A stretch of DNA of 44,712 nucleotides from Candidatus Micrarchaeota archaeon (lineage in GTDB: Archaea; Micrarchaeota; Micrarchaeia; CAILAH01). A program made the position numbers and the translations under genes. Shown here one piece after another: positions 1 through 25,661 of the stretch. Below the pieces are notes generated by a model. The model had not been told where the DNA came from and ran no database searches. It was given only the letters and a program-made list of their open reading frames with translations. Location of the stretch: the NCBI GenBank assembly GCA_964401875.1, contig CAYOAB010000001.1:1-44712 (forward strand), given 5' to 3'. Positions within the stretch are counted from its first letter, which is position 1, and every line of letters begins with the position of its first letter.

Positions 1-344
1 AAAATATCTGGCGAAGCTAATTTTGTAGAACCATTTGAAACTCTATCAAATTCTTTAGCATCACAACCGCCTTTTTGTAAGGCCATACCAGCAGCGACAA
101 ATTCTTTTCCTTTCAAATCTAATACAGCTTTATGTAATGCTTCTCCGAATTTTTCATTTATAGGTTGTCCATCATTTGTTTTGATGTAAAGAAACATTTT
201 GCCATTTTCTTGTGCAATAGTTACTTGATGATCTTTTAAATTAGGTTGTTTTTGAATTATAGTGTTTAATTGTTCTGATGCTTTTTGCATGATTTGTATT
301 TGTTCTTTAGAAAATTCTTCATTTTTAACTTGTACTTCTACCAT
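1..344 (-). CDS. hypothetical protein, N-terminal ~114 aa only (ORF runs off window start)
   Basis: Not in the supplied ORF track. Hand translation of the minus strand gives ATG at 344-342 (MVEVQVKNEEFSKEQIQIMQKASEQLNTII...GGCDAKEFDRVSNGSTKLASPDI). There is no stop in this frame down to position 3 and the composition is ordinary. No family recognised. Confidence 0.5.
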   Translation of the reverse strand, partial: MVEVQVKNEEFSKEQIQIMQKASEQLNTIIQKQPNLKDHQVTIAQENGKMFLYIKTNDGQPINEKFGEALHKAVLDLKGKEFVAAGMALQKGGCDAKEFDRVSNGSTKLASPDI

Positions 345-404: not shown

Positions 405-556
405 GCGGATATAGTATAGCCTGGTAGTACATGGCCTTGCCAACACTGCGGAAGGGGGAGTACCCCCTTCCCCGAGTGATCTGCCCCAACCCCCCATGCG
501 GTGGCTTGAGGTATTGTGAAAAGGCTAAAGCTCGGGTTCAAATCCCGATATCCGCA
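405..556 (+). tRNA. tRNA-Gly(GCC) with ~79-nt intron at canonical 37/38 position
   Basis: Cloverleaf folded by hand. Acceptor is GCGGATA/TATCCGC and the D-arm is GTAT-AGCCTGGTA-GTAC. The anticodon stem is TGGCC (432-436)/GGCTA (523-527) and the loop is TTGCCAA, giving anticodon GCC. The variable loop is AAGC, the T-arm is TCGGG-TTCAAAT-CCCGA and the discriminator is A556. No CCA is encoded. Mature length is 73 nt after removing 443-521. Confidence 0.8.
443..521 (+). other. tRNA-Gly intron (GC-rich, hairpin-containing)
   Basis: This segment separates anticodon-loop A37 from A38/GGCTA; the boundary is ambiguous by 1 nt. It contains the hairpin GGAAGGGGG-AGTA-CCCCCTTCC (450-471). It is homologous to the start of the T-loop insertions at 1120 and 1455 (ACTGCGG...CCGAGT). 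Confidence 0.7.
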
Positions 557-559
557 TAT

Positions 560-618
560 AAGGGGCGCATCCGCCCCCTTTAAGACCCCCGGTATTTTCG
601 CCTCCGTGAGGCGAAAAT
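560..618 (+). other. two strong GC-rich stem-loops 3' of tRNA-Gly, followed by a T-run
   Basis: The first is GGGGCG-CATC-CGCCCC (562-577). The second is ATTTTCGCCTC-CGT-GAGGCGAAAAT (594-618). TATTTATTTT follows. Function is unknown; it may be a processing or termination signal, or another member of the hairpin-module family. Confidence 0.45.
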
Positions 619-710
619 GTGAAATATTTATTTTGAGAGAACACGGAAAAGAAACTAATTATTTTTGAAAATAAATATAGACTAATTATAAGTTCAAAGA
701 ATTAGAAATA

Positions 711-775
711 ACTTCGACCTCTGGTCTAATTTTGGGATTGAACCCTTTTACGCCAAGACCTATGCAGTTGTAATT
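711..775 (+). repeat. 65-nt leader repeat, copy A (upstream of 3'-half unit 2)
   Basis: ACTTCGACCTCTGGTCTAATTTTGGGATTGAACCCTTTTACGCCAAGACCTATGCAGTTGTAATT is near-identical to 1294-1358, with one T/G difference. An AT-rich TATA-like sequence (AAATAAATATAG / TAATTATAAG, 671-692) lies upstream. Confidence 0.8.
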
Positions 776-799
776 TGGACTTGTCGGAAAAGGGTCAAA

Positions 800-984
800 G
801 GCTAAAGCTCGGGTTCAAATATTGATTTTCGAAGAAAAGCAATATGTCTGTTTTCCAAAGGAAAACGAACATGCCATTCGCTTATAGCGAATAAGCATGC
901 CATTTGAAAATCAAATGAACATCCCGATATCCGCATTTGCGAAGCAAATGAGGAGGCCGTAAACAAAGTTTACGAGCATCCGCA
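800..984 (+). ncRNA. tRNA-Gly 3'-half unit 2, with a T-loop insertion and a candidate acceptor-strand insertion; no 5' half in cis
   Basis: Exon-like pieces are GGCTAAAGCTCGGGTTCAAAT (800-820) and TCCCGATA(TCCGCA) (922-935), with a second TCCGCA at 979-984 followed by CTT plus a T-run. The ~100-nt insertion (821-921) has ends that can pair: TGATTTTC 823-830 with GAAAATCA 906-913, and exon TTCA 814-817 with TGAA 916-919. Confidence 0.5.
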
Positions 985-1098
985 CTTACTAATTTTATTT
1001 TGTAAAAATATTATTAATTATAAAAATGGTCAGAGGGTCATTAGGGGGTTAAGGGGGAGCATCCCCCTTCCCGTCCTGCAGGGGCGGAACCCTGCAAA

Positions 1099-1271
1099 GG
1101 CTAAAGCTCGGGTTCAAATATACTGCGGGAGGGGGAAACCCCCTCCCCCGAGTATCTGTCTATTCGGCAAATCCGAATGACATGCTACAAACGTTCGCGT
1201 TTGTGAGCATCTGCCCCTACCCCCTTTGGAGGTATGCAGTTGTGCTTATATTGAAATTCCCGATATCCGCA
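1099..1271 (+). ncRNA. tRNA-Gly 3'-half unit 3, with a ~138-nt T-loop insertion; no 5' half in cis
   Basis: GGCTAAAGCTCGGGTTCAAAT (1099-1119) and TCCCGATATCCGCA (1258-1271) match the tRNA-Gly exon 2 sequence exactly. TTCAAATAT (1113-1121) can pair with ATATTGAA (1248-1255). A TATA-like TTATAAAAA (1019-1027) lies upstream, and CTTGTTTTT follows the unit. Confidence 0.5.
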
Positions 1272-1293
1272 CTTGTTTTTCGTTTTATAATAT

Positions 1294-1358
1294 ACTTCGA
1301 CCTCTGGTCGAATTTTGGGATTGAACCCTTTTACGCCAAGACCTATGCAGTTGTAATT
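1294..1358 (+). repeat. 65-nt leader repeat, copy B (upstream of 3'-half unit 4)
   Basis: Near-identical to 711-775. Here it is separated from the shared GGACTTGTCGGAAAAGGGTCAAAGGCTA segment by an extra 52-nt insertion (1359-1410) that is absent from unit 2. Confidence 0.8.
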
Positions 1359-1433
1359 CCACTTTTTGCAAGGCAATAAGGGGTGCCATTTGGCGAAGCC
1401 GAATAAGCATGGACTTGTCGGAAAAGGGTCAAA

Positions 1434-1710
1434 GGCTAAAGCTCGGGTTCAAATATACTGCGGGAGGGGGAAACCCCCTCCCCCGAGTATCTGTCTATTC
1501 GGCAAATCCGAATGACATGCCACAAACGTTCGCGTTTGTGAGCATCTGCCCCTACCCCCTTTGGAGGTAGGCAGTTGTGCTTATATTGAAATTCCCGATA
1601 TGTTTTATGCGAAGCATAAAATATGTCTATTTTCCTTTGGAAAATGATCATGCCATTCGGCTTCGCCGAATTAACATGCCGTAAATACAAAGTATTTACG
1701 AGCATCCGCA
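1434..1710 (+). ncRNA. tRNA-Gly 3'-half unit 4, with a T-loop insertion and an acceptor-3'-strand insertion; no 5' half in cis
   Basis: Exon pieces are GGCTAAAGCTCGGGTTCAAAT (1434-1454), TCCCGATA (1593-1600) and TCCGCA (1705-1710). Joined, they reproduce the tRNA-Gly 3' half exactly. The acceptor strand is unambiguously interrupted after CCCGATA by 104 nt (1601-1704). Confidence 0.55.
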
Positions 1711-1743
1711 CTTATTTTTATATTTTACGAATGAAATAAACAT

Positions 1744-2166
1744 ATGAAAAACTTGGCCTTTTTTGGATTATATGAAAATCTCTTCATAGTATTAAAAGAA
1801 GAACAAGGGGAAGAAATGGCCCTTAACATCTTTAGAAAAGTTATGGAGAAAGGATTGAAAACAACATATGATAAAATGGGATTTGAAAAAGGTAATGTTA
1901 ATGATTTTGTTAGGGTTTTAACAGAAAGAGATAATAGTGTTGGGCTAAGAGTAGAATTTCCGGAAATTACAGAAAATAAAATAGTGTACCAATTTTATGA
2001 TGATCCATTTCCAGGGTTAAAAGGGAGAGTTGAACATGAGAAATTGGATGATACTTTTATCTCGTTTAAAATTAAACATATTTTGGGAAATGAATGGAAA
2101 TATAAAACAACTAAACATGCCTGGGATGGAAATGAATACACAGAATATGTAATCACACGCATTTAG
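1744..2166 (+). CDS. hypothetical protein (140 aa)
   Basis: Clean ORF with ordinary composition and an ATG start after an AT-rich promoter-like region. No family recognised. Its 3' end overlaps the convergent topA by 14 nt. Confidence 0.6.
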   Translation: MKNLAFFGLYENLFIVLKEEQGEEMALNIFRKVMEKGLKTTYDKMGFEKGNVNDFVRVLTERDNSVGLRVEFPEITENKIVYQFYDDPFPGLKGRVEHEKLDDTFISFKIKHILGNEWKYKTTKHAWDGNEYTEYVITRI

Positions 2167-4156
2167 GATTGGCACATTTGACAACTTTTCTTTTGCTTAA
2201 AATGTAAGTCATTATGGGCCCGCCGCACTTTGGACATTTCTCAACAAACGTGGCCTTCTTGATTGTGGAAGGAAGAGGGTATGCGTTTTTACAATTAGGG
2301 TAATTGGAACAACCTATGAATATTCTTTTATCCCTTGTTGGCCTTACAATTAAGTTACCAGTTTTACATAAATTACAAGGCATAACATAATTTTCCATTC
2401 TTTCACTTTGGTAATATGCAGTTCTTAACTCTTTACCAATGTTATCACTATTCTTTTTGAAATCGTCAATTATTTTCAATATTATTTTCTTGGCATCGTT
2501 AACTACATTTTCCTCTTTCTCTTTATTTTCTTGTATCTTCTCAACTTTCTCTTCAAATTCACGTGTTAAGTTTTCATCTAAAATATCTTTACAATACTTT
2601 GAAAGAGTTTCATGAACGGCCATACCTAATAAACTAACTTCAATACTTTTAGATTTAACATATTCACGTTGGAATAAAATATCAATAATTGTTGCACGTG
2701 TTGCCTTAGTACCTAAGTTATACTTTTCAAGTTCCTTAATTAGGGAAGTTGCAGTGTAACGTTTAGGTGGTTGAGTTTTCTTTTCCTCTTTACTTAACTT
2801 GTCAACAGTTATTTCTTCTTTTTCTTTTAACTTTGGAAGTGTTTGTTCATCAGCTGAATAATATTTACCATAAAGTTCAATCCATCCTGGAGTTAAAACA
2901 ACAATACCTTTTCCAATGTACTTTTCATTACCCAATTTCAAAACAGCTTTAGTAGATTGTTTAACTGCTGGGTCACCGAAACAAGCAAGGAACCTGCGCA
3001 CGATTAAATCATATAACTTCTTTTCTCTTTCACCTACATTTACTTGTATACCTGTTGGGTGAATTGCTGGGTGTGCCGGGTCTGATTTCTTACCATTGTT
3101 AGGTTTATACTTATTATTTTGAATTAAGAAATTGGCTTCCTTTGAGTATAAATGATTGTTTGATAACTTTTGAATTATAGATTTCAAATCAATTGAGGGG
3201 GGATACTGTTGTGAACTTGTACGCGGGTAACTTATCATTGAACTTTCATAAAGAGTTTGCGTTAATGCTAAAACATCTTTAGGTGCAAACCTGTGCACCC
3301 TGTACGCTTCAATCTGTAATGATGTTAAATCAAATGGAACTGGTGGTGCCACTTTAAATTCATTAACTTGTAATGATTCAACTTTACCTTTCTTATCAGA
3401 ATTTTTTAATGCAGTTTCTGCTTCTTTTTCATCCCAAAACTTTTCCTTCTCATGTACAAATTGTACTTTTTTATATTCTGCAAAAAGTTGCCAATAAGGT
3501 TTTGAAACGAACTTTTGAATTTCCTTTTCCCTTTTAACTAAAATGTCAAGAGAAGGTCCTTGCACACGTCCAATACTTAAATTTTTTCTTAAACCTGCAT
3601 TACGTGCACATTGACTTAACGCTCTGCTTATGTTTATACCCCAAAACCAATCTAACATGTGCCTCGTTTCACCTGCTATGGCATTACTATAATCAAGTTC
3701 AGTCATGTTTTCATATGCTGAAACAATATCTGATTTAGTTAATGCAGAGAATTTCATTCTCATACCCGTATCAGAACCTGCGGCAAAACGTATAGCATTG
3801 TAACCTATAAGAGAACCTTCAACATCATAATCGCACGCTGAAACGAACATGTCACAATCATCTGAAAGTTTAGAAATTAAATCAATGTAATCTTTAGTGT
3901 ACGCTGCTTGTTTGTTTGATTGGTATGCGGGAACCCATTCAATGTCAAAAACAGGAATTGCATAACCTTTACTTTTTTGTTCAAGTGAATATATGTGCCC
4001 TACTGCACTTACCACAATTAATTTATCATTTCCGTAAGTTGTTTCATAATAAGAAATTCCTTTTATATTTTTTCTTTTAACGTTATCCCCTAAAAAAGTT
4101 GCTATTTTTTCAGCCACTTTTGGTTTCTCTGCAATAATCATTATGGATTTGTTCAC
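2153..4156 (-). CDS. topA: type IA DNA topoisomerase (Topo I/III-like) with C-terminal zinc ribbons
   Basis: N-terminal Toprim domain (MIIAEKPKVA..., acidic cluster ACDYDVEGSLIG). Active-site Tyr motif ISYPRTSSQ. C-terminal Cys4 ribbons: CNLCKTG...CSNYPNC and CPKCGG...CANPKC. Confidence 0.9.
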   Translation of the reverse strand: MNKSIMIIAEKPKVAEKIATFLGDNVKRKNIKGISYYETTYGNDKLIVVSAVGHIYSLEQKSKGYAIPVFDIEWVPAYQSNKQAAYTKDYIDLISKLSDDCDMFVSACDYDVEGSLIGYNAIRFAAGSDTGMRMKFSALTKSDIVSAYENMTELDYSNAIAGETRHMLDWFWGINISRALSQCARNAGLRKNLSIGRVQGPSLDILVKREKEIQKFVSKPYWQLFAEYKKVQFVHEKEKFWDEKEAETALKNSDKKGKVESLQVNEFKVAPPVPFDLTSLQIEAYRVHRFAPKDVLALTQTLYESSMISYPRTSSQQYPPSIDLKSIIQKLSNNHLYSKEANFLIQNNKYKPNNGKKSDPAHPAIHPTGIQVNVGEREKKLYDLIVRRFLACFGDPAVKQSTKAVLKLGNEKYIGKGIVVLTPGWIELYGKYYSADEQTLPKLKEKEEITVDKLSKEEKKTQPPKRYTATSLIKELEKYNLGTKATRATIIDILFQREYVKSKSIEVSLLGMAVHETLSKYCKDILDENLTREFEEKVEKIQENKEKEENVVNDAKKIILKIIDDFKKNSDNIGKELRTAYYQSERMENYVMPCNLCKTGNLIVRPTRDKRIFIGCSNYPNCKNAYPLPSTIKKATFVEKCPKCGGPIMTYILSKRKVVKCANPKCV

Positions 4157-4208
4157 AAAGTTATTGAAAAGGGGAATTATTTAAATTTTCATGTTTTAAG
4201 AGAAAAAT

Positions 4209-4529
4209 ATGTTTCCAGGAAATCCAAGACAAATGCAACAAATGCTTAAACAGATGGGAATCAAATCCCGTGAGATTGATGCTAATAAAGTTATTATAGA
4301 AGGTAAAGATGGTACTAATATTATAATAGAACAACCTTCAATAACTGAAATGGACATGAAAGGCGAAAAGAATTTTACAATTGCGGGTAAAGTTAGAGAA
4401 GAAACAGCAATAAATGAAGAAGATGTTAGTTTAATTATGGAAGCAACAAATGTTAAAAGAGAAGAGGCAATTAAAGCACTTAAAGAAGAAGGAGATGTCG
4501 CAAGTGCCATAGTAAAATTAAAAGAATAA
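4209..4529 (+). CDS. nac: nascent polypeptide-associated complex protein (archaeal NAC, NAC + UBA domains)
   Basis: N-terminus NPRQMQQMLKQMGIK with the typical NAC beta-barrel region, and a C-terminal UBA-like EDVSLIMEATNVKREEAIKALKEEGDVASAIVKL. Confidence 0.9.
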   Translation: MFPGNPRQMQQMLKQMGIKSREIDANKVIIEGKDGTNIIIEQPSITEMDMKGEKNFTIAGKVREETAINEEDVSLIMEATNVKREEAIKALKEEGDVASAIVKLKE

Positions 4530-17177: not shown

Positions 17178-17264
17178 TTTTAGGATATGCGAAGCAACCG
17201 AAAAAGGCCAATGTGTCTTTTTCCCTGGGATTTTTAGGATATGCGAAGCAACCGAAAAAGGCCA
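17178..17264 (+). repeat. 33-bp direct repeat x2 (TTTTAGGATATGCGAAGCAACCGAAAAAGGCCA) abutting tRNA-Thr
   Basis: Identical copies at 17178-17210 and 17232-17264, separated by the 21-nt ATGTGTCTTTTTCCCTGGGAT. The second copy ends exactly at tRNA-Thr position +1. Confidence 0.85.
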
Positions 17265-17338
17265 GCCTCAGTAACTCAGCACGGTAGAGTGCGTCCTTGG
17301 TAAGGACGAAGCCGTGGGTTCAAATCCCATCTGAGGCT
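17265..17338 (+). tRNA. tRNA-Thr(GGU), no intron
   Basis: Acceptor GCCTCAG/CTGAGGC. D-arm ACTC-AGCACGGTA-GAGT. Anticodon arm CGTCC-TTGGTAA-GGACG. Variable loop AAGCC. T-arm GTGGG-TTCAAAT-CCCAT. Discriminator T. 74 nt. Confidence 0.9.
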
Positions 17339-18824: not shown

Positions 18825-19203
18825 TTTCAATAATTTCCTCTTTTGTTAATTCCTCACGTTCGGGAACCTTATCAGTTAAGGAAATATAACTTCTAGTATT
18901 AATTTTTGTTGGAACTAAATGAATGTGTAGATGAGGAAGAGAACGACCATTGATTGGGTTTATTGTGATTATGGGGTAATCTCCATATGTTTTCTTTATT
19001 ATTTCAGAAAAAATTTCAACTAAATCAAACATGTCTTTTGCTTCTTCTTGTGTTAAATCATTATATTTTTCAACATGTCTAAGAGGCATTACCATCAAGT
19101 GGCCTTTCTTTAGGGAATGTAAATTAATTGCAACCTGTGAATATTTAGTTTTATGAACTAATGTTTCTTGTTTTTCTAAATCATCGCAAAATGGACAATT
19201 CAC
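18796..19203 (-). CDS. HIT-family (histidine triad) nucleotide hydrolase/transferase
   Basis: Histidine triad HLHIHLVP and N-terminal CPFC. It overlaps the upstream HAD gene by 4 nt, suggesting an operon. Confidence 0.8.
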   Translation of the reverse strand: MNCPFCDDLEKQETLVHKTKYSQVAINLHSLKKGHLMVMPLRHVEKYNDLTQEEAKDMFDLVEIFSEIIKKTYGDYPIITINPINGRSLPHLHIHLVPTKINTRSYISLTDKVPEREELTKEEIIEIKNKINKFL

Positions 19204-20294
19204 ATAATAACCTCCTGTACCTTATAATAATCAATTAAATTATTATTTCTAATTGAAGCTACAATTAAATCCTTTCTAACTTTACGAGAATATTCTTTTA
19301 TTTTTTCTAAGTATTCCCAATTTAAATTTTCTGAAATAATCACAACATATTCACTTTGAGAATTTTTTGGCATCATGCCTTTTTCATGAACAAGAAATAA
19401 ATCTTCAGAAGGAACATAGTTTGAAACATGTATTTTATCTCTTAAATCCTTGAAAACCAAATATCTTTCTTTAAGAAATTTATCTTTGTTTACCTTTTTT
19501 AGTGCATCGGATTTGATTTTTTTAAGTTCAGTTAAATAAGCTGCTTGTAAAATGTCAACATAATATGAATTGTTTTTTGGATAACCTATACCTCTTCCCT
19601 TTAATTCATCAACTAAAGAACCTTCAATTTTATGTTCATATTTTCCTGAAATCCAATTAACAGTGTTAAGTATAAATAAAGGGTTTAAACAAACATAATC
19701 GGCATTAACCTCCCTTAACAAATCAGCACTAAAAGTGTTAACCACACCTATAGTAATCATGCCTGCTCTTTTACCTGAAATTACACCATTAGGAGAATCT
19801 TCAACCACTATACATTCTTCTTTAGGGACATTTAATTTTTTTCTTGCAGTTTCATAAGGAATAGGTGAAGGTTTACCTTCATTCACATCATTACTTGTTA
19901 TAACAAAATCAAAATAATTCTTAATATTACATCTTTCTAAAGTTAAATTAACAAGTGAGGAATGTCCTGAAGTTACAATAACTAAAGTATGTTCTTTTTT
20001 TAACTCTTTTAGTACTTTTTTGATGTTATCTAAAAGTTTAATTTTAGATTTTTTAAAATAATTAATTTTTTCTTGTAAAAAATCTTGAGAAGTAATATTC
20101 AAATTAAAAATCTTGATATATAAATCAAAAACATCCATTTGTCTTAAACCCGTTGTTTCAGTTAACTTGAAAGATCCTTTTTTTAATTCTTCTTTAAAGT
20201 CAATATTATATTTTTTAAGTATGAATTCATCTGCCTTATTATGTAAAAGTTCAGTGTCTGTCAAAGTTCCATCTAAATCAAATAAAATATACAT
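19200..20294 (-). CDS. HAD-superfamily hydrolase (subfamily IA, beta-PGM-like) fused to an uncharacterised ~160-aa C-terminal domain
   Basis: HAD motifs are FDLDGTLTDT (I), IVTSG (II), EGKPSP (III) and VVEDSPNGVISGKRAGM (IV). The C-terminal half was not recognised. Confidence 0.7.
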   Translation of the reverse strand: MYILFDLDGTLTDTELLHNKADEFILKKYNIDFKEELKKGSFKLTETTGLRQMDVFDLYIKIFNLNITSQDFLQEKINYFKKSKIKLLDNIKKVLKELKKEHTLVIVTSGHSSLVNLTLERCNIKNYFDFVITSNDVNEGKPSPIPYETARKKLNVPKEECIVVEDSPNGVISGKRAGMITIGVVNTFSADLLREVNADYVCLNPLFILNTVNWISGKYEHKIEGSLVDELKGRGIGYPKNNSYYVDILQAAYLTELKKIKSDALKKVNKDKFLKERYLVFKDLRDKIHVSNYVPSEDLFLVHEKGMMPKNSQSEYVVIISENLNWEYLEKIKEYSRKVRKDLIVASIRNNNLIDYYKVQEVIM

Positions 20295-21152: not shown

Positions 21153-24100
21153 ATGAGTGGAGATGGAGTTAATAGAACTAATGAAATACTTAATAAAAAG
21201 TTAGAATACTGGAAAGGAAAATTACTTGATATATCTCTAAAAAATAAACTTATAAATTTCAAAGAAAAATCTTCAGTCATACCTTTAATTATAAAAGAAG
21301 AAAATGAATTCCATAATATTTATGATTTGATTGTCAATAAAAATAAAAAATTATCATTAGCAATTAACTCTGAAAAAACTAATGTTTATAATGTAAACTT
21401 GTCGGAAAAGGAAGCTAAAAATAGGTTATATAACGTATATTTGAGTAGTAAAGAAAGTTTATCGGAACAAACAATCAACACTTTGTATATGACATTTGGT
21501 TTTTTAGAATATGAAGATTCTGAAACAAATACAAAAATTAAAGCTCCTTTAATTCTGGTGCCTATTAAAATTGAAAAAAGAAAGGAAATTGAAAAAGAAA
21601 AATTACCTTATGTAATATATTTCTTAGAAGATGATATACAAATTAACCCTGCTTTGAGACAAAAATTAATATACCAAAACAATTTAGACATAGGAGAAGA
21701 TTTTGAAACACTTGATTTATTTTTTGAAAAAATTCAAAAGGAAGTTGAAAAATATAATTGGAAAGTTACAAAAAATGAAATTTATTTTGGTATATTTTCA
21801 TTTCAAAAATTATCAATGTATCAAGATTTGAGTAGGAATAAAGAACTTATAATTAATCATCCAATCATTAAAGCAATAGCAGGAGAAAAATATGAATATG
21901 ATTATACTAAAATAATTCACGGTAAAGAAATTGATAAAATTAATATGAAAGAGAATCTGTATGTTTTAGATGCAGATTCAAGCCAAAAGGAAGCAATAAT
22001 TGCCGCTAAGAATGGTTTAAGTTTTGTTTTACAAGGTCCACCAGGAACTGGAAAAAGTCAAACTATAGCCAACATCATAGCTCAACAATTAGCAGAAGGT
22101 AAAAAGGTTTTGTTCGTTAGTGAAAAATCTGCTGCACTTGAGGTAGTTAAAAAAAGATTAAATGAAACGGGGATAGGTCATTATTTACTTGAATTACATA
22201 ACGCAAATATTAAAGGTAAAAAATGGGTTCTCGAACAATTTGATAGAGCATTAAGTGATAATAAAATATATGAAATTGAAAAGAATATTATAGAAACACT
22301 TGAAGAAAATAGAAAAATACTTAGAGAATATGGAGAAGAATTAATTGAAAGTAAAATTGAGTTAAATGCTTATGAAGTCTTAGGAATACTTTCAAAACAT
22401 AGTAATATTAAATTTGCAGATATGGAAATTAACTTGAAAACTGATTATGAATATTATAGAAAAAATATTGTGGTTTTTGAAGAACTTGATTTTTATGAAA
22501 AACAAATAGAACAGTATAATACTAATTTGTTAAGGTATATTAATAACAAATTGTACAATGAATTTACAGATATTAAAAGAGAAAGATTAAAGGAAAATTG
22601 TGAATCTGCTCTCGAAAATATTGAATATATGAAAATAGACCTCGATAATATTGAAAAGAATTTGGGACTATATTTTACATGTGTTGAAGATTTTAGAACT
22701 TTAAACAAAAAAAGAGATTTATTATTGGCTAAACCTTCTAATAACTTAACACGTGAATTTTTTACATATGAGGGAGGAACAGAAATATTTGATAACTTTG
22801 ATAAAAAAACTGAGGAAATAAAAGCCTTGAAAATATATTTTGAAAAAAAATATAATATAGAATTATTTAAAAGTGAAATGTTTAAAGAAATATATTCAAA
22901 CATTTCTAATGCAAGTTCATTTTTCCTTTTTAGAATAGTGGATAGTAATTATATAAGATCTGAAAAAATAATTAAAAAGAATTACAAGGGAGATAAAAAA
23001 CATTTCAATTATGAGAACATTTTACAAGATTTAAAACAATATAAAACTTGTGAAAAATTAGAGGTAGAAATTAAAGAAGAAGAAAAGAGAATTAAAGAAA
23101 TGTTAAATATTAAGGAAGTTAATGTAAAGGAAATAAAAGAAATAATAAGTTGGATAAAAGAACTTAAAAAAGAAAATATAATTAATTCAAGATTGATTGA
23201 AACACTTGTAAAAAATACTGATGATTATAAAAAAGAATTTGATAAAACAGTAAAAAGTGTGGACAACTTCATGAATTATTATCTTAAAATAACAGATTTC
23301 CTTGAAGTTCAAGCTGTTGAAAAATATTTCTTGAGAGCATCATGGAATAAATTAGATGAACGTTTTAAAAACATAGAAGAAAATTCAAATGAAATATCAA
23401 AATGGGTTGAATTTAAGAACACTTTAGATAAGTTAGATAGTGATTTAAAATTAATTTTTGAAAAGGCAACGAAAGATGAAAAGAGAAATTATAAAGTAAG
23501 TGAATTGTTTGAAAAATTGTTTATGCAAGAATATTTGTTCAGAATGAGATTAGATTTAGTTAAAAAGAGTAGAGAATATTTAGATATGGTTCATAAAAAA
23601 TTCGTGAACGCGGATAAAGAACATATGTATTATTCAAGAAATTCTATAATCAAACAAATTGAAACTAAAAAACCTAAAATAAGTTTAAGCTCTGGAAGTT
23701 CTGAAATTGGAATTTTAAAAAGAGAAATTGCTAAAAATAGAAGTCATATGCCAATGAGAAAATTATTTAATGAAATTAAAAATTTGGCTTTCTTAATTAA
23801 ACCTTGTTTTATGATGAGTCCATTATCAGTAGCTAAATATGTAGATCCAGAGGTTATGGATTTTGATACTGTGATATTTGATGAAGCATCACAAATTATG
23901 GTGGAAGATTCTATTAGTTCAATATATAGAGGAAAACAAGTTATTGTAGTGGGAGACTCAAAACAATTACCGCCAACAATGTTCTTTAAAGTAAATGAAG
24001 ACCTTGATTTAGAAGAAGATTTAGAACAAGCAACAAGTATATTAGATGAAATTGGACCTTACTTACCTAATCACTTATTAAAGTGGCATTATAGAAGTAA

Positions 24101-25661
24101 AAATGAATCTTTAATCAACTTTTCAAATTATAATTTTTATAATAACTCACTTGTAACTTTCCCAAATAATAAAGTTAATGATTTCGCAATTGATTATGAA
24201 TATGTGGATAATGGTGTTTATGATAGAGGAAAAAGTAGGTATAATAAAAATGAAGCAAGAAGAGTAATTGAATTAATTAAAAAACATTATGACACTAATC
24301 CAAAAAAGAGTTTAGGAATTATTGCATTTAGTATGGCACAACAAAAATGTATACATGAAGAATTAGAAATGTTTTTATTTGAAAATCCAATTTATTTAAG
24401 ATACATTAATTTAGATGATACCATTGATGGTTTCTTCGTTAAAAATCTTGAAACAGTACAAGGAGATGAAAGAGATTCAATTATAATTAGTGTTGGTTAT
24501 GGCAGGGATATGGAAGGAAACTTTTCACTTAATTTTGGTCCCTTAAATAAAGAAGGGGGAGAAAAAAGATTAAATGTTGCAATTACAAGGGCAAAAGAAA
24601 AAGTTACTATTGTTTCTTCAATTAATCCAAGTGAAATTAATGAGGGTAGAACTAAATCAGAAGGATTAATTTTACTTAGAAAATATATGGAATATGCAAA
24701 TAAAAAAGAATCTGAAATAATTAAAAGACATAATTTTGAATCTGAATTACAAAAAATAATGTATGAAAAATTAACTTCTTATGGTTTTAAGATTGATAAA
24801 AATGTAGGTAATTCTGATTATAATATAGATATTGCAATTAAAGATTTTGTAAATCCAAACGTTTACAAATTGGCATTACAACTTGATGGTAAAATGTATA
24901 TTAATTCAAAGGTCACTAGAGACAGGGATAGAATTCATTCAGAAATATTAGAAAATATGGGATGGAAAGTTCATAGAATTTGGTCATATGATTGGATGTT
25001 AAACCCTGAAAAGGAAATTGAAAAAATACTTGAACTTATGGATAATAAAATTAAACTTGAAGATATGAAAAAGGAAAATAAAAAACAATCCATTGAAATT
25101 AAAGATGAGGATTTATCAATTGCAATAAAAGAATATCCTAATATAGATTACAAAAAGTTAGATAAAGAAACATATTATGAATTTGATTTCTTTTCAAAAA
25201 TAAAAGAAGTTATCAAGAATGAATCTCCTATAACTAAAACACTTTTAATGAAAAGAATATTTGATATATATGGAGTTAAAGAAGGAGTAAAAAGTAAAAA
25301 AAGATTTGATGAAATAATTACAACTCATGTACCCTCAACAGAAATATTTATGGAAAAAGAAACATTATGGTTTGAAAAGCCTAAATTCTTTTATAATTTA
25401 AGAAAAAATGTTAAAGGTGAAAGAGACATAAATGAAATGACAGAACCTGAAATTAGAATTGGTATTTTATTAATAGTAGATACTGCAATAAGTATATCAA
25501 AAGAAGACATTCCAAAAGATGTCGCTAATTTATTTAATGTACCTAAAATGTCCGCTAAATTTAAAGCTAAATGTAAAATATTAATAGATGAATTAATAGA
25601 GAAAAAATATTTAATAAATGGAGAAAAAATTACTCTTAATAAAGAAAAAGAAATAGCATAA
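21153..25661 (+). CDS. large SF1 (Upf1/Dna2-like) helicase: DUF4011-type N-terminus, AAA_11/AAA_12 core, Vsr/DUF559-like nuclease-fold module, DUF3320-like C-terminus
   Basis: N-terminal LLDISLKNKLINFK (DUF4011-like). Walker A is GPPGTGKSQ, motif II is VIFDEASQI and motif III is VVGDSKQLPPT. Further motifs are YRSKNESLINFSN, TVQGDERDSIIIS and RLNVAITRAKEKV. These are followed by a PD-(D/E)xK-like IDIAIKD...LALQLDGKMY...HRIWSYDW segment. Confidence 0.8.
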   Translation: MSGDGVNRTNEILNKKLEYWKGKLLDISLKNKLINFKEKSSVIPLIIKEENEFHNIYDLIVNKNKKLSLAINSEKTNVYNVNLSEKEAKNRLYNVYLSSKESLSEQTINTLYMTFGFLEYEDSETNTKIKAPLILVPIKIEKRKEIEKEKLPYVIYFLEDDIQINPALRQKLIYQNNLDIGEDFETLDLFFEKIQKEVEKYNWKVTKNEIYFGIFSFQKLSMYQDLSRNKELIINHPIIKAIAGEKYEYDYTKIIHGKEIDKINMKENLYVLDADSSQKEAIIAAKNGLSFVLQGPPGTGKSQTIANIIAQQLAEGKKVLFVSEKSAALEVVKKRLNETGIGHYLLELHNANIKGKKWVLEQFDRALSDNKIYEIEKNIIETLEENRKILREYGEELIESKIELNAYEVLGILSKHSNIKFADMEINLKTDYEYYRKNIVVFEELDFYEKQIEQYNTNLLRYINNKLYNEFTDIKRERLKENCESALENIEYMKIDLDNIEKNLGLYFTCVEDFRTLNKKRDLLLAKPSNNLTREFFTYEGGTEIFDNFDKKTEEIKALKIYFEKKYNIELFKSEMFKEIYSNISNASSFFLFRIVDSNYIRSEKIIKKNYKGDKKHFNYENILQDLKQYKTCEKLEVEIKEEEKRIKEMLNIKEVNVKEIKEIISWIKELKKENIINSRLIETLVKNTDDYKKEFDKTVKSVDNFMNYYLKITDFLEVQAVEKYFLRASWNKLDERFKNIEENSNEISKWVEFKNTLDKLDSDLKLIFEKATKDEKRNYKVSELFEKLFMQEYLFRMRLDLVKKSREYLDMVHKKFVNADKEHMYYSRNSIIKQIETKKPKISLSSGSSEIGILKREIAKNRSHMPMRKLFNEIKNLAFLIKPCFMMSPLSVAKYVDPEVMDFDTVIFDEASQIMVEDSISSIYRGKQVIVVGDSKQLPPTMFFKVNEDLDLEEDLEQATSILDEIGPYLPNHLLKWHYRSKNESLINFSNYNFYNNSLVTFPNNKVNDFAIDYEYVDNGVYDRGKSRYNKNEARRVIELIKKHYDTNPKKSLGIIAFSMAQQKCIHEELEMFLFENPIYLRYINLDDTIDGFFVKNLETVQGDERDSIIISVGYGRDMEGNFSLNFGPLNKEGGEKRLNVAITRAKEKVTIVSSINPSEINEGRTKSEGLILLRKYMEYANKKESEIIKRHNFESELQKIMYEKLTSYGFKIDKNVGNSDYNIDIAIKDFVNPNVYKLALQLDGKMYINSKVTRDRDRIHSEILENMGWKVHRIWSYDWMLNPEKEIEKILELMDNKIKLEDMKKENKKQSIEIKDEDLSIAIKEYPNIDYKKLDKETYYEFDFFSKIKEVIKNESPITKTLLMKRIFDIYGVKEGVKSKKRFDEIITTHVPSTEIFMEKETLWFEKPKFFYNLRKNVKGERDINEMTEPEIRIGILLIVDTAISISKEDIPKDVANLFNVPKMSAKFKAKCKILIDELIEKKYLINGEKITLNKEKEIA

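What the first reader, a model, noticed from the sequence alone, without database searches (positions are those of the whole stretch)
405..1717. One intact tRNA-Gly(GCC) followed by three extra copies of only its 3' half: candidate split/trans-spliced or fragmented tRNA locus
The 24-nt string AAAGGCTAAAGCTCGGGTTCAAAT covers the anticodon-stem 3' strand, the variable loop and the T-stem/loop. It occurs four times on the + strand, at 520-543, 797-820, 1096-1119 and 1431-1454. Each time the rest of the 3' half (TCCCGATA + TCCGCA) is present downstream, so all four copies would give the same mature 3' half. The matching 5' half (GCGGATATAGTATAGCCTGGTAGTACATGGCCTTGCCA, 405-442) occurs only once. 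I found no other G[CT]GG[AG]T[AG] acceptor strand followed by a D-arm between 557 and 1743. Units 2-4 each sit behind an AT-rich TATA-like stretch and each ends in TCCGCACTT plus a T-run, which looks like independent transcription units. Exon-like parts are 100% conserved while the intervening parts differ, which argues against simple decay. Split tRNA genes (Nanoarchaeum equitans), tri-split tRNA-Gly (Caldivirga) and multi-intron tRNAs (Thermoproteales) are known precedents. A tandem array of 3' halves of one tRNA beside an intact copy is not something I recognise.
Basis: partly seen in the sequence, partly recalled or inferred. Interest (0 to 1): 0.85.

Follow-up and report, generated by a model that had tools for sequence, protein, structure and literature searches.

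The report
Variable array of tRNA-Gly 3' halves
In a Micrarchaeota (DPANN archaeon) genome, an intact intron-containing glycine tRNA gene is followed by three partial copies of its 3' half, some carrying their own introns; related strains gain, lose and reshuffle these copies, so this looks like a recombination hot spot rather than a tRNA assembled from separate pieces.

Summary
tRNA-Gly(GCC) lies at 405-556 with a 79-nt intron at 37/38. Three further 3' halves follow, and no other 5' half occurs in the window. Two independent assemblies reproduce the array.

The split-tRNA reading is not supported.
- The four nucleotides that must pair with the anticodon loop (TTGC) to form the splice motif do so in every intact allele seen (GTGA, GTAA, GCAA). 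They do not in any orphan leader (GGTC, CTGC, TTGC).
- Unit number and composition vary within one species. One strain has no complete orphan.
- Several orphans carry an acceptor-strand insert with no bulge-helix-bulge (BHB) motif.

Some features are nonetheless real and unusual.
- The T-loop inserts are bona fide BHB introns at 59/60, a position known in Micrarchaeum.
- They are homologous to the 37/38 intron.
- The 37/38 intron is swapped wholesale between strains.
- Orphan exons stay 37/37 identical where leaders have diverged to 64%.
- Leaders keep hairpins through compensatory changes.

Best reading: about 300-bp "leader + 3' half + trailer" cassettes are stacked and removed by recombination within the repeated 3' half. 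No mobile-element genes lie between them. This is a new variant of the tRNA-fragment repeats known at integration sites.

The parts
405..442 (+). 5' exon of tRNA-Gly(GCC), positions 1-37; the only 5' half in the window
   Evidence: Rfam tRNA 49.9 bits; pattern scan; identical in L006, L017-L021
443..521 (+). 79-nt intron at the canonical 37/38 position. It ends GTGA-AA, and GTGA pairs with anticodon-loop TTGC. The allele differs between strains.
   Evidence: L006/L020/L021 carry an unrelated 85-86-nt intron, L019 a third (102 nt), and L018 this one plus two nested hairpin modules.
522..556 (+). 3' exon of the intact gene (A38-A73), uninterrupted
557..711 (.). Spacer after unit 1. It holds two GC-rich hairpins (561-579, 594-618), a T-run and an AT-rich TATA-like stretch. 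It is absent in L018 and present in L006 and L020.
712..798 (+). Leader type 2/4 of unit 2: hairpin 713-729, then a long imperfect hairpin (742-749 pairs with 788-795), then C-AA before the exon
   Evidence: The outer stem is kept in L019 through two double changes.
799..819 (+). Unit 2 exon part 1 (A38-A59)
820..921 (+). 102-nt insert at 59/60 in unit 2. The central helix TTCA:TGAA and 3-nt bulges are present; the inner helix is 12 bp after one mismatch. The insert is built of small hairpin modules.
   Evidence: read; inverted repeat I4; 100% identical insert in L014
922..935 (+). Unit 2 exon part 2 (T60-A73), a complete 3' end
936..984 (+). 49-nt extra segment ending in a second ATCCGCA; two hairpins, no BHB motif; absent from the equivalent junction in L018
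985..1097 (+). Spacer plus leader type 3: T-run trailer, TTAATTATAAAAA, hairpin A (1051-1069), hairpin B (1077-1096), then AA before the exon
   Evidence: Hairpin B covaries (GGG/CCC vs ACG/CGT), and hairpin A has three stem versions.
1098..1118 (+). Unit 3 exon part 1 (A38-A59)
1119..1257 (+). 139-nt intron at 59/60 with a strict BHB motif: T-stem 5 bp, TTCA:TGAA, two 3-nt bulges, 3-bp inner helix. It is homologous to the 37/38 intron of unit 1. It contains a nested 53-nt module (1158-1210) that L008 lacks.
1258..1271 (+). Unit 3 exon part 2 (T60-A73)
1272..1432 (+). Spacer plus leader type 2/4 of unit 4, with a 51-nt hairpin-module insert (1359-1409) relative to unit 2
1433..1453 (+). Unit 4 exon part 1 (A38-A59)
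1454..1592 (+). 139-nt strict-BHB intron at 59/60, 99% identical to that of unit 3
1593..1601 (+). Unit 4 exon part 2a (T60-T68)
1602..1703 (+). ~104-nt insert in the acceptor 3' strand (the exact register is ambiguous by 2 nt). No canonical BHB in any of the three possible registers. Homologous inserts occur in L008, L014, L019 and L020.
   Evidence: manual register test
1704..1710 (+). ATCCGCA, the last 7 nt of the tRNA, followed by a host trailer with a T-run (1711-1743) and the ORF starting at 1744

Best explanation
**What it is.** The locus is a recombination hot spot at the 3' half of tRNA-Gly(GCC) in a Micrarchaeota lineage. Only unit 1 is the working gene: 5' exon, relaxed-BHB intron at 37/38, 3' exon.

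**What units 2-4 are.** They are about 280-335-bp cassettes of the form "trailer + AT-rich stretch + structured leader + 3' half". Recombination between the repeated 3'-half sequences stacked them downstream of the gene. This resembles Campbell-type insertion and pop-out, or unequal crossing-over.

**Consequences of an exchange.** Each exchange can displace the previously used 3' half, together with whatever introns it carried, one step downstream. It can also swap intron alleles.

**Why the exons stay identical.** Because the repeats keep recombining with the selected gene, orphan exons stay identical to it while leaders and spacers diverge, shuffle or invert.

**What is shown.**
- The anatomy of the units.
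- Genuine BHB introns at 59/60.
- Strain-to-strain gain and loss of a cassette at boundaries that fall inside the repeat.
- Mosaicism between units.
- Intron replacement between strains.

**What is inferred.**
- The recombination mechanism, whether homologous or integrase-mediated.
- That the orphan units are not needed to make a tRNA.
For: **1. Presence/absence inside one species.**
- L017 and L018 are 97% identical over 9.3 kb. L017 and L018 carry the window's unit 1.
- In L018 unit 1 runs ...ATCCGCA|CTTACTAATTTT + leader 3.
- The window and L020 have an extra spacer + leader 2/4 + 3' half between those two points.

**2. Variable architecture.**
- L008 has one 3' half with a T-loop intron, then only a fragment starting in the T-loop.
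- L020 has one orphan, and its leader 3 is fused directly to the topoisomerase gene end.
- L019 has one orphan plus an inverted leader-3 copy.

**3. Mosaic units.** Unit 4 combines the leader of unit 2 with the T-loop intron of unit 3. The L014 terminal unit combines a type-3 leader with the T-loop insert of unit 2, which is 100% identical there.

**4. Units are more conserved than neighbouring coding DNA.**
- L016: the ORF is 93.9% identical to the window, its upstream 241 nt 100%.
- L014: the ORF is 84.6% identical, the T-loop insert 100%.
- This implies recent exchange.

**5. Orphan exons versus leader.** Exons are 37/37 identical to the gene in L019, while the leader is 64% identical.

**6. 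Splice-motif test.** The 4 nt before AA|A pair with anticodon-loop TTGC in all intact alleles (GTGA, GTAA, GCAA). They do not in the orphan leaders (GGTC, CTGC, TTGC).

**7. Dead-looking copies.** Acceptor-strand inserts without a BHB motif interrupt the orphan in L019, L020, unit 4 and L014.

**8. Precedent.** Population heterogeneity, intron gain and tRNA fragments arising from recombination at a tRNA locus were described in Caldiarchaeum (PMC3293823). Partial tRNA fragments were reported in Aeropyrum (PMC3218864).
Against: - No integrase or other mobile-element gene lies between or near the units. Spacers are only 110-240 bp.
- No match to the units was found in IMG/VR, GenBank phages or PLSDB plasmids.
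- Leaders are structured and keep hairpins through compensatory changes. Each unit has a TATA-like stretch and a T-run. Each leader ends in a helix followed by an A-rich 3-nt stretch, which could serve as a relaxed half-BHB site. These features would fit expressed, processed RNAs.
- Homogenisation of 37-nt repeats by recombination alone is assumed, not shown.
Confidence: 0.58

Rival explanations
1. Units 2-4 are true split tRNA genes. Each is an independently transcribed 3'-half gene. Its RNA is cut by the splicing endonuclease at the leader/exon junction and ligated in trans to 5' halves encoded elsewhere, for example for tRNA-Gly(UCC) or (CCC). Those tRNAs would share this 3' half, as in Nanoarchaeum, Caldivirga and Staphylothermus.
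For: - Orphan exons are perfectly conserved against diverged leaders.
- AT-rich TATA-like stretches and T-runs flank each unit.
- Leaders are structured and covarying, and end in a helix followed by AA|A.
- Leader hairpin A is homologous to the intron hairpin, as reported for split-tRNA leaders.
- There is precedent for a 3' half almost identical to the 3' part of an intact isoacceptor (PMC3218864).
- The Micrarchaeum endonuclease cleaves relaxed motifs (PMC3239211).
- The search for 5' halves was insensitive. The metagenome scan missed L017 and L019, which contain the 20-mer.
Against: - No 5' half was found in the window or in the collection scans.
- The 4 nt before the junction cannot pair with a Gly anticodon loop with U33 in the canonical register.
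- L008 has no complete orphan, and L020's only orphan has a non-BHB insert in the acceptor strand.
- Copy number varies within a species.
- Two unrelated leader types carry the same exon.
Confidence: 0.15
2. The cassettes are themselves small non-autonomous mobile units, or ncRNA genes. They would use the tRNA 3' half as an attachment site or structural module. A recombinase encoded elsewhere would mobilise them, giving an integron-like array. The hairpins would be protein-recognition elements at the DNA level.
For: - A whole cassette is present or absent at boundaries that fall within the repeat.
- Cassette pieces are identical in genomes whose flanking genes differ by 6-15%.
- An inverted copy occurs in L019.
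- L020's deletion boundary falls exactly at the leader/exon junction.
- Hairpins are conserved through covariation.
- Many small hairpin modules are inserted or absent between strains.
Against: - No recombinase was seen in 44.7 kb.
- No free or viral copies were found.
- No copy of the modules occurs elsewhere in the window.
- Homologous recombination alone could explain the pattern.
Confidence: 0.2
3. Units 2-4 are inert decaying scars of old virus or plasmid integrations (attR copies) whose element bodies were deleted.
For: - They are direct repeats of the tRNA 3' part downstream of the gene, the classic signature (PMC3293823).
- The L008 fragment starts in the T-loop like a classical short att repeat.
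- The neighbouring gene content is unstable: ORF140 is lost in L019 and L020.
Against: - There are zero substitutions in 37 exon nt where the leader is 36% diverged. At that rate the chance of no change in 37 nt is about 1e-7.
- Recent exchange between strains is evident.
- Leaders are structured and covarying.
- All three spacers are <=240 bp with no gene remnants.
Confidence: 0.05

Closest known systems
Heterogeneous tRNA-Thr(GGU) locus of Caldiarchaeum subterraneum (Sugahara et al. 2012, PMC3293823)
   Same: - One tRNA locus differs between members of a natural population.
- Introns are gained or lost.
- A partial copy of the tRNA sits as a direct repeat.
- The pattern is explained by recombination at the tRNA gene.
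   Different: - There the fragment is a 5' piece.
- A 1.8-kb recombinase-encoding element lies between fragment and gene.
- Here there are three tandem 3' halves with their own introns, separated by only 110-240 bp with no genes.
attL/attR tRNA repeats of archaeal integrative elements (SSV1, pNOB8 type; as summarised in PMC3293823)
   Same: The direct repeat equals the 3' part of the target tRNA gene, and the intact gene is reconstituted at one end.
   Different: - No element body or integrase is present.
- The repeats start at the intron/exon boundary (position 38) rather than at an arbitrary point.
- They are themselves interrupted by BHB introns.
Split / trans-spliced tRNA genes (Nanoarchaeum equitans; Caldivirga tri-split tRNA-Gly; Staphylothermus tRNA-Lys(CUU), PMC3218864)
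   Same: - A stand-alone 3' half starts at an intron position.
- It has an AT-rich upstream region, a structured leader related to an intron, and a T-run.
- The 3' half is identical to that of an intact isoacceptor.
   Different: - No partner 5' half was found.
- The leader lacks the anticodon-loop complement.
- An intact gene for the same tRNA is adjacent.
- Copy number is unstable.
Non-canonical 59/60 introns of Micrarchaeum (ARMAN-2) tRNAs and the epsilon2 splicing endonuclease (Fujishima et al. 2011, PMC3239211)
   Same: Same phylum, same intron position, and a strict or relaxed BHB built on the T-stem.
   Different: Introns here are 102-139 nt against 13 nt for the ARMAN-2 59/60 intron that was tested. 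They contain nested hairpin modules and sit in copies that lack a 5' half.
Intron transposition between tRNA positions in Thermoproteales (cited in PMC3239211)
   Same: One intron family is found at two positions. The 37/38 intron of unit 1 and the 59/60 intron of units 3 and 4 share their first ~55 nt. Each has a position-specific 3' end.
   Different: Here both positions lie in copies of one tRNA at one locus, and the organism is a DPANN archaeon.

Membership tests
Split (trans-spliced) tRNA gene | A separately encoded 5' half that matches the 3' half (acceptor and anticodon stems) | tested here: inconclusive
   - None in the window.
- The 20-mer of the 5' half gave 0 hits in genome contigs. 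In metagenome contigs it gave only the intact gene, L006.
- That scan missed L017 and L019, which hold the 20-mer, so sensitivity is low.
Split (trans-spliced) tRNA gene | A leader that forms the BHB junction with the 5' half: 4 nt complementary to anticodon-loop positions 32-35, then a 3-nt bulge | tested here: not met
   Intact alleles have GTGA, GTAA or GCAA, all of which pair with TTGC. Orphans have GGTC (units 2 and 4, L020), CTGC (unit 3), TTGC (L014) and GTTA (L019, 3 of 4 pairs).. Relaxed motifs cannot be excluded.
Split (trans-spliced) tRNA gene | No intact gene for the same tRNA; the halves are required | tested here: not met
   - An intact tRNA-Gly(GCC) lies immediately upstream.
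- L008 has no complete orphan.
- The status of the other Gly isoacceptors is unknown.
Split (trans-spliced) tRNA gene | Independent transcription of the half and a mature trans-spliced product | not testable with these tools
   Only AT-rich TATA-like stretches and T-runs can be seen. No RNA data are available.
tRNA-fragment direct repeats of integrated mobile elements (attL/attR) | A direct repeat identical to the 3' part of the tRNA, downstream of the intact gene | tested here: met
tRNA-fragment direct repeats of integrated mobile elements (attL/attR) | An element body with an integrase or other mobile-element genes between the repeats | tested here: not met
   - Spacers are 110-240 bp without ORFs.
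- No integrase was found among the 29 window ORFs scanned, covering roughly the first 39 kb.
- No phage, plasmid or viral-contig match.
tRNA-fragment direct repeats of integrated mobile elements (attL/attR) | Empty and occupied sites in related genomes, with boundaries inside the repeat | tested here: met
   L018 (empty) versus the window and L020 (occupied) for the spacer + leader 2/4 + 3'-half cassette
Archaeal BHB intron at non-canonical position 59/60 | Two 3-nt bulges separated by a 4-bp helix, flanked by helices, such that excision restores the T-loop | tested here: met
   - Units 3 and 4: cuts after 1118/1257 and 1453/1592, outer helix 5 bp, inner helix 3 bp.
- Unit 2: same central helix, one mismatch at the start of the inner helix.
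Archaeal BHB intron (acceptor-strand inserts of units 2 and 4) | A BHB motif at the insert boundaries | tested here: not met
   None of the three registers that restore CCCGATATCCGCA gives a paired 4-nt helix (manual test; not reported by the scan).

The most novel reading that the evidence does not exclude
The units are living "3'-half cassettes". Each would be a small expressed, endonuclease-processed module that is continually exchanged between genomes and swapped into the working tRNA-Gly gene. They could alternatively be trans-ligated to 5' halves. The population would then keep rewriting the sequence and intron content of a tRNA integration target. This would be an integron-like or spare-part system built on a tRNA half, and a live intermediate between intron-containing and split tRNA genes.
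Probability: 0.15. Interest if true: 0.8.

Novelty: new variant of a known kind. Interest (0 to 1): 0.5.

Why it matters
How archaeal tRNA genes acquire non-canonical introns and become split is an old open question. It has mostly been argued from comparisons between distant species.

This locus shows several of the proposed steps side by side within one species complex:
- wholesale replacement of the 37/38 intron;
- the same intron family at 37/38 and 59/60;
- small hairpin modules nested in introns;
- stand-alone 3' halves with promoter-like and terminator-like flanks;
- cassette gain and loss.

The organism is abundant in anaerobic digesters and is covered by many public metagenomes. The recombination model can therefore be tested directly with long reads and tRNA-seq.

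If the cassettes turn out to be expressed or mobile, that would be a new kind of element.

Tried and rejected
- **ARAGORN** finds only tRNA-Thr and misses the intron-containing Gly gene.
- **Rfam** at E<=10 on 300-1800 and E<=1 on the whole window gives no family for leaders, spacers or inserts. It finds no second tRNA-like piece.
- **Exact-pattern scans.**
  - The 5' half gave nothing in genome contigs. In metagenome contigs it gave only L006 plus a chance hit, L007.
  - The 3'-half 24-mer gave nothing in viral contigs or genome contigs.
  - The T-loop intron, leader 2/4 and spacer hairpin gave nothing in viral contigs.
- **blastn** of the array against phages and plasmids: no match.
- **Module copies elsewhere in the window:** none beyond chance.
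- **L001/L002 as a split unit 1: rejected.** Their first 44 nt differ from the window, which suggested a split. L018 shows those bases belong to two extra hairpin modules nested in the same intron.
- **Synteny in more distant relatives** (66-67% identity of the ORF140 protein) is lost, so they are uninformative. L022 and L023 do not reach a tRNA.
- **The BHB scan is noisy:** 77 hits against 44 in shuffles. I used only the hits that restore the exon.
- **C/D-box or K-turn reading of the hairpin + GAGCAT modules:** considered by eye, no convincing boxes found.
- **A hidden 5' half inside the leaders:** considered and rejected. They contain no acceptor strand, and the hairpin that looks like a D-arm is not followed by an anticodon arm.
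- **Coding potential:** the 91-aa ORF at 1436-1711 (-) lies inside unit 4 and I treated it as spurious.
Full report
**1.

The 24-mer AAAGGCTAAAGCTCGGGTTCAAAT occurs four times on the + strand, at 520, 797, 1096 and 1431, with none expected by chance. Rfam places a tRNA at 405-556 at 49.9 bits. It has anticodon GCC and an insert in the anticodon loop. ARAGORN misses it.

Reading the sequence gives this anatomy for unit 1:
- 5' exon at 405-442;
- intron at 443-521, position 37/38;
- 3' exon at 522-556.

In units 2-4 the 24-mer supplies A38-A59(T60) and the rest of the 3' half follows after inserts:
- Unit 2: T60-A73 at 922-935, with an extra ATCCGCA at 978-984.
- Unit 3: T60-A73 at 1258-1271.
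- Unit 4: T60-T68 at 1593-1601, then ATCCGCA at 1704-1710.

No other acceptor strand followed by a D-arm exists in the window. No other tRNA-like match appears at E<=1.

Independent assemblies L001 (JGI 3300009780) and L002 (ENA ERZ795059) reproduce window 482-4529 at 99.2-99.9%. The array is therefore not an assembly artefact.

**2. The organism**

- The window is about 27% G+C.
- It encodes archaeal markers: GatD, an archaeal-type topoisomerase neighbourhood with NAC, NrdD, TyrRS and AlaRS.
- Named homologues of the flanking proteins are labelled Candidatus Micrarchaeota.
- The contigs that could be traced to a habitat come from anaerobic-digester metagenomes.

**3. The inserts in the T-loop are real introns**

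A scan for the archaeal bulge-helix-bulge (BHB) motif finds a strict motif in units 3 and 4.
- The outer helix is the 5-bp T-stem and the central helix is TTCA:TGAA.
- There are two 3-nt bulges and a 3-bp inner helix.
- The cuts fall after 1118/1257 and 1453/1592, which is position 59/60.

Unit 2 has the same central helix and bulges (cuts after 819/921). Its inner helix is 12 bp after one mismatch.

Position 59/60 is a documented intron site in Micrarchaeum (ARMAN-2). Its epsilon2 endonuclease cleaves strict and relaxed motifs in vitro (PMC3239211).

The 59/60 intron of units 3 and 4 is homologous to the 37/38 intron of unit 1 over its first ~55 nt. Each has a position-specific 3' end: TGAA-AT versus GTGA-AA. 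One intron family therefore occupies two positions.

By contrast, the inserts in the acceptor 3' strand have no BHB motif in any register that restores the exon. This applies to the ~104-nt insert in unit 4 and the 49-nt segment after unit 2.

**4. Relatives show a hypervariable locus**

I reached related contigs through the flanking proteins.

| Locus | Relation to the window | What it shows |
|---|---|---|
| L017 | Same species as L018 (97% DNA identity over 9.3 kb) | Carries the window's unit 1 |
| L018 | Same species | Unit 1 intron has two extra nested hairpin modules. The 3' exon is followed directly by CTTACTAATTTT + a type-3 leader. It lacks the spacer, leader 2/4 and unit 2. |
| L006 | Upstream protein 100% identical to that of L017 (P0080) | An unrelated 86-nt intron at 37/38 |
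| L020, L021 | Fe-hydrogenase-like flank 83% aa | The L006-type intron |
| L019 | Fe-hydrogenase-like flank 88% aa | A third intron allele, 102 nt |
| L008 | Flank ORF 92% nt | One 3' half carrying the 59/60 intron but lacking the nested 53-nt module. Then only a fragment, TTCAAATCCCGATAC + insert + ATCCGCA. |
| L020 | As above | One orphan: leader 2/4, no T-loop intron, 49-nt acceptor insert. A type-3 leader is fused directly to the end of the topoisomerase gene, and ORF140 is deleted. |
| L019 | As above | One orphan with two acceptor inserts, an inverted type-3 leader copy, a CTP-transferase-like gene and only a remnant of ORF140. |
| L014 | Flank ORF 84.6% nt | A terminal unit with a type-3 leader and a T-loop insert 100% identical to that of unit 2. 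|

The extra modules in L018 explain why L001 and L002 start with 44 nt that differ from the window.

Within the window, unit 4 is a mosaic. Its leader matches unit 2 and its T-loop intron matches unit 3.

**5. Neither decay nor a split tRNA**

The orphan exons do not decay.
- In L019 the leader is only 64% identical to the window's, yet the 37 exon nucleotides are identical.
- At the leader's rate the chance of no change in 37 nt is about 1e-7.
- Pieces of the units are more similar between genomes than the adjacent coding sequence, which indicates recent exchange.

The leaders are structured.
- Hairpin B of leader 3 keeps its stem through two double changes (GGG/CCC versus ACG/CGT). Hairpin A exists in three stem versions.
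- The outer stem of leader 2/4 is kept in L019 through G-C to A-U and C-G to G-U changes.

The features expected of a trans-splicing partner are missing.
- In every intact allele the 4 nt preceding AA|A pair with the anticodon loop TTGC: GTGA, GTAA or GCAA. A random 4-mer does so with probability 1/32.
- The orphan leaders have GGTC, CTGC or TTGC, which do not pair with TTGC. They also do not pair with a UCC or CCC loop that has U33.
- An intact gene is adjacent, one strain has no complete orphan, and the only orphan of L020 and L019 is interrupted by a non-BHB insert.
- No 5' half was found. I give this little weight, because the metagenome scan missed contigs known to hold the pattern.

**6. 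Most likely mechanism**

Repeated recombination within the 3'-half repeat adds, removes, swaps and occasionally inverts about 300-bp cassettes of trailer + leader + 3' half. It displaces formerly used 3' halves together with their introns. It also keeps the repeats identical to the selected gene.

This extends the model proposed for Caldiarchaeum tRNA-Thr (PMC3293823). It also extends the general view that tRNA genes are recombination and integration hot spots (PMC3218864).

The unusual points here are:
- there is no element body or recombinase gene;
- nothing matches known viruses or plasmids;
- the repeats begin at the intron/exon boundary;
- the repeats themselves carry BHB introns.

I put 0.58 on this reading. 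I put 0.20 on the cassettes being small mobile or expressed units in their own right. I put 0.15 on genuine split 3'-half genes and 0.05 on inert scars.

**7. Verdict**

The split-tRNA interpretation is not supported, although "not simple decay" is.

The locus is a new variant of known tRNA-fragment repeats. It has moderate interest as a natural snapshot of tRNA intron turnover and gene fragmentation in DPANN archaea.

Noticed in passing
window 19200-20294 (-): A 364-aa protein has a clear HAD-hydrolase domain (residues 3-184). It also has a weak match to the catalytic C-terminal domain of tRNA-intron endonuclease (PF01974, residues 276-356, 22.7 bits, below the cut-off of 27). PDB sequence search hits only the HAD part. 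It may be an unusual endonuclease fusion in an organism with many odd tRNA introns.
   Followed up: partly
window 17178-17264: A 33-nt segment, TTTTAGGATATGCGAAGCAACCGAAAAAGGCCA, occurs twice in tandem directly upstream of tRNA-Thr(GGU) at 17265-17338. The second copy abuts the tRNA 5' end. It contains the same TGC-GAA-GCA mini-hairpin as modules in the Gly array.
   Followed up: no
window 3-344 (-); full gene in L006 931-2061 (-), L017 143-1258, L018 375-1553: The divergently transcribed upstream gene encodes a lysine/glutamate-rich protein with no Pfam match. L017 and L018 are 97% identical in DNA over 9.3 kb, yet the two versions of this protein are only 56% identical, because the 3' two-thirds of the gene diverges. 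L018 also has an extra 213-aa ORF. This is a hypervariable protein next to the hypervariable tRNA locus.
   Followed up: partly
window 820-921, 1158-1210, 1359-1409, 1602-1703; L018 and L001 intron: A family of small hairpin modules occurs here (6-8-bp stem; loop AAA, GAA or TTCG). Each is followed by GA(N)C-AT(G/C)C. They are present or absent between strains and nested inside introns and leaders. Some are flanked by a BHB-like motif with a palindromic CATG helix and CC|A bulges (849/874, 875/901, 1388/1412). They may be nested mini-introns or tiny mobile palindromes.
   Followed up: partly
window 1744-2166 (+) and L019/L020: The conserved 140-aa hypothetical gene next to the array is widespread in Micrarchaeota. 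It is deleted in L020 and reduced to a remnant in L019, where a CTP-transferase-like gene has appeared. Gene content beside the array is unstable.
   Followed up: partly
window 21153-25661 (+): A 1502-aa protein combines DUF4011, SF1 helicase domains and a REase_MTES_1575 nuclease domain. It lies in the lowest-G+C part of the window. It may be a defence or repair nuclease-helicase.
   Followed up: no
L022 8200-11943: A more distant Micrarchaeota MAG (GCA_038740245.1) carries cas4-cas2-cas1 next to an OrfB/Cas12f-like TnpB gene, near the Fe-hydrogenase-like gene.
   Followed up: no
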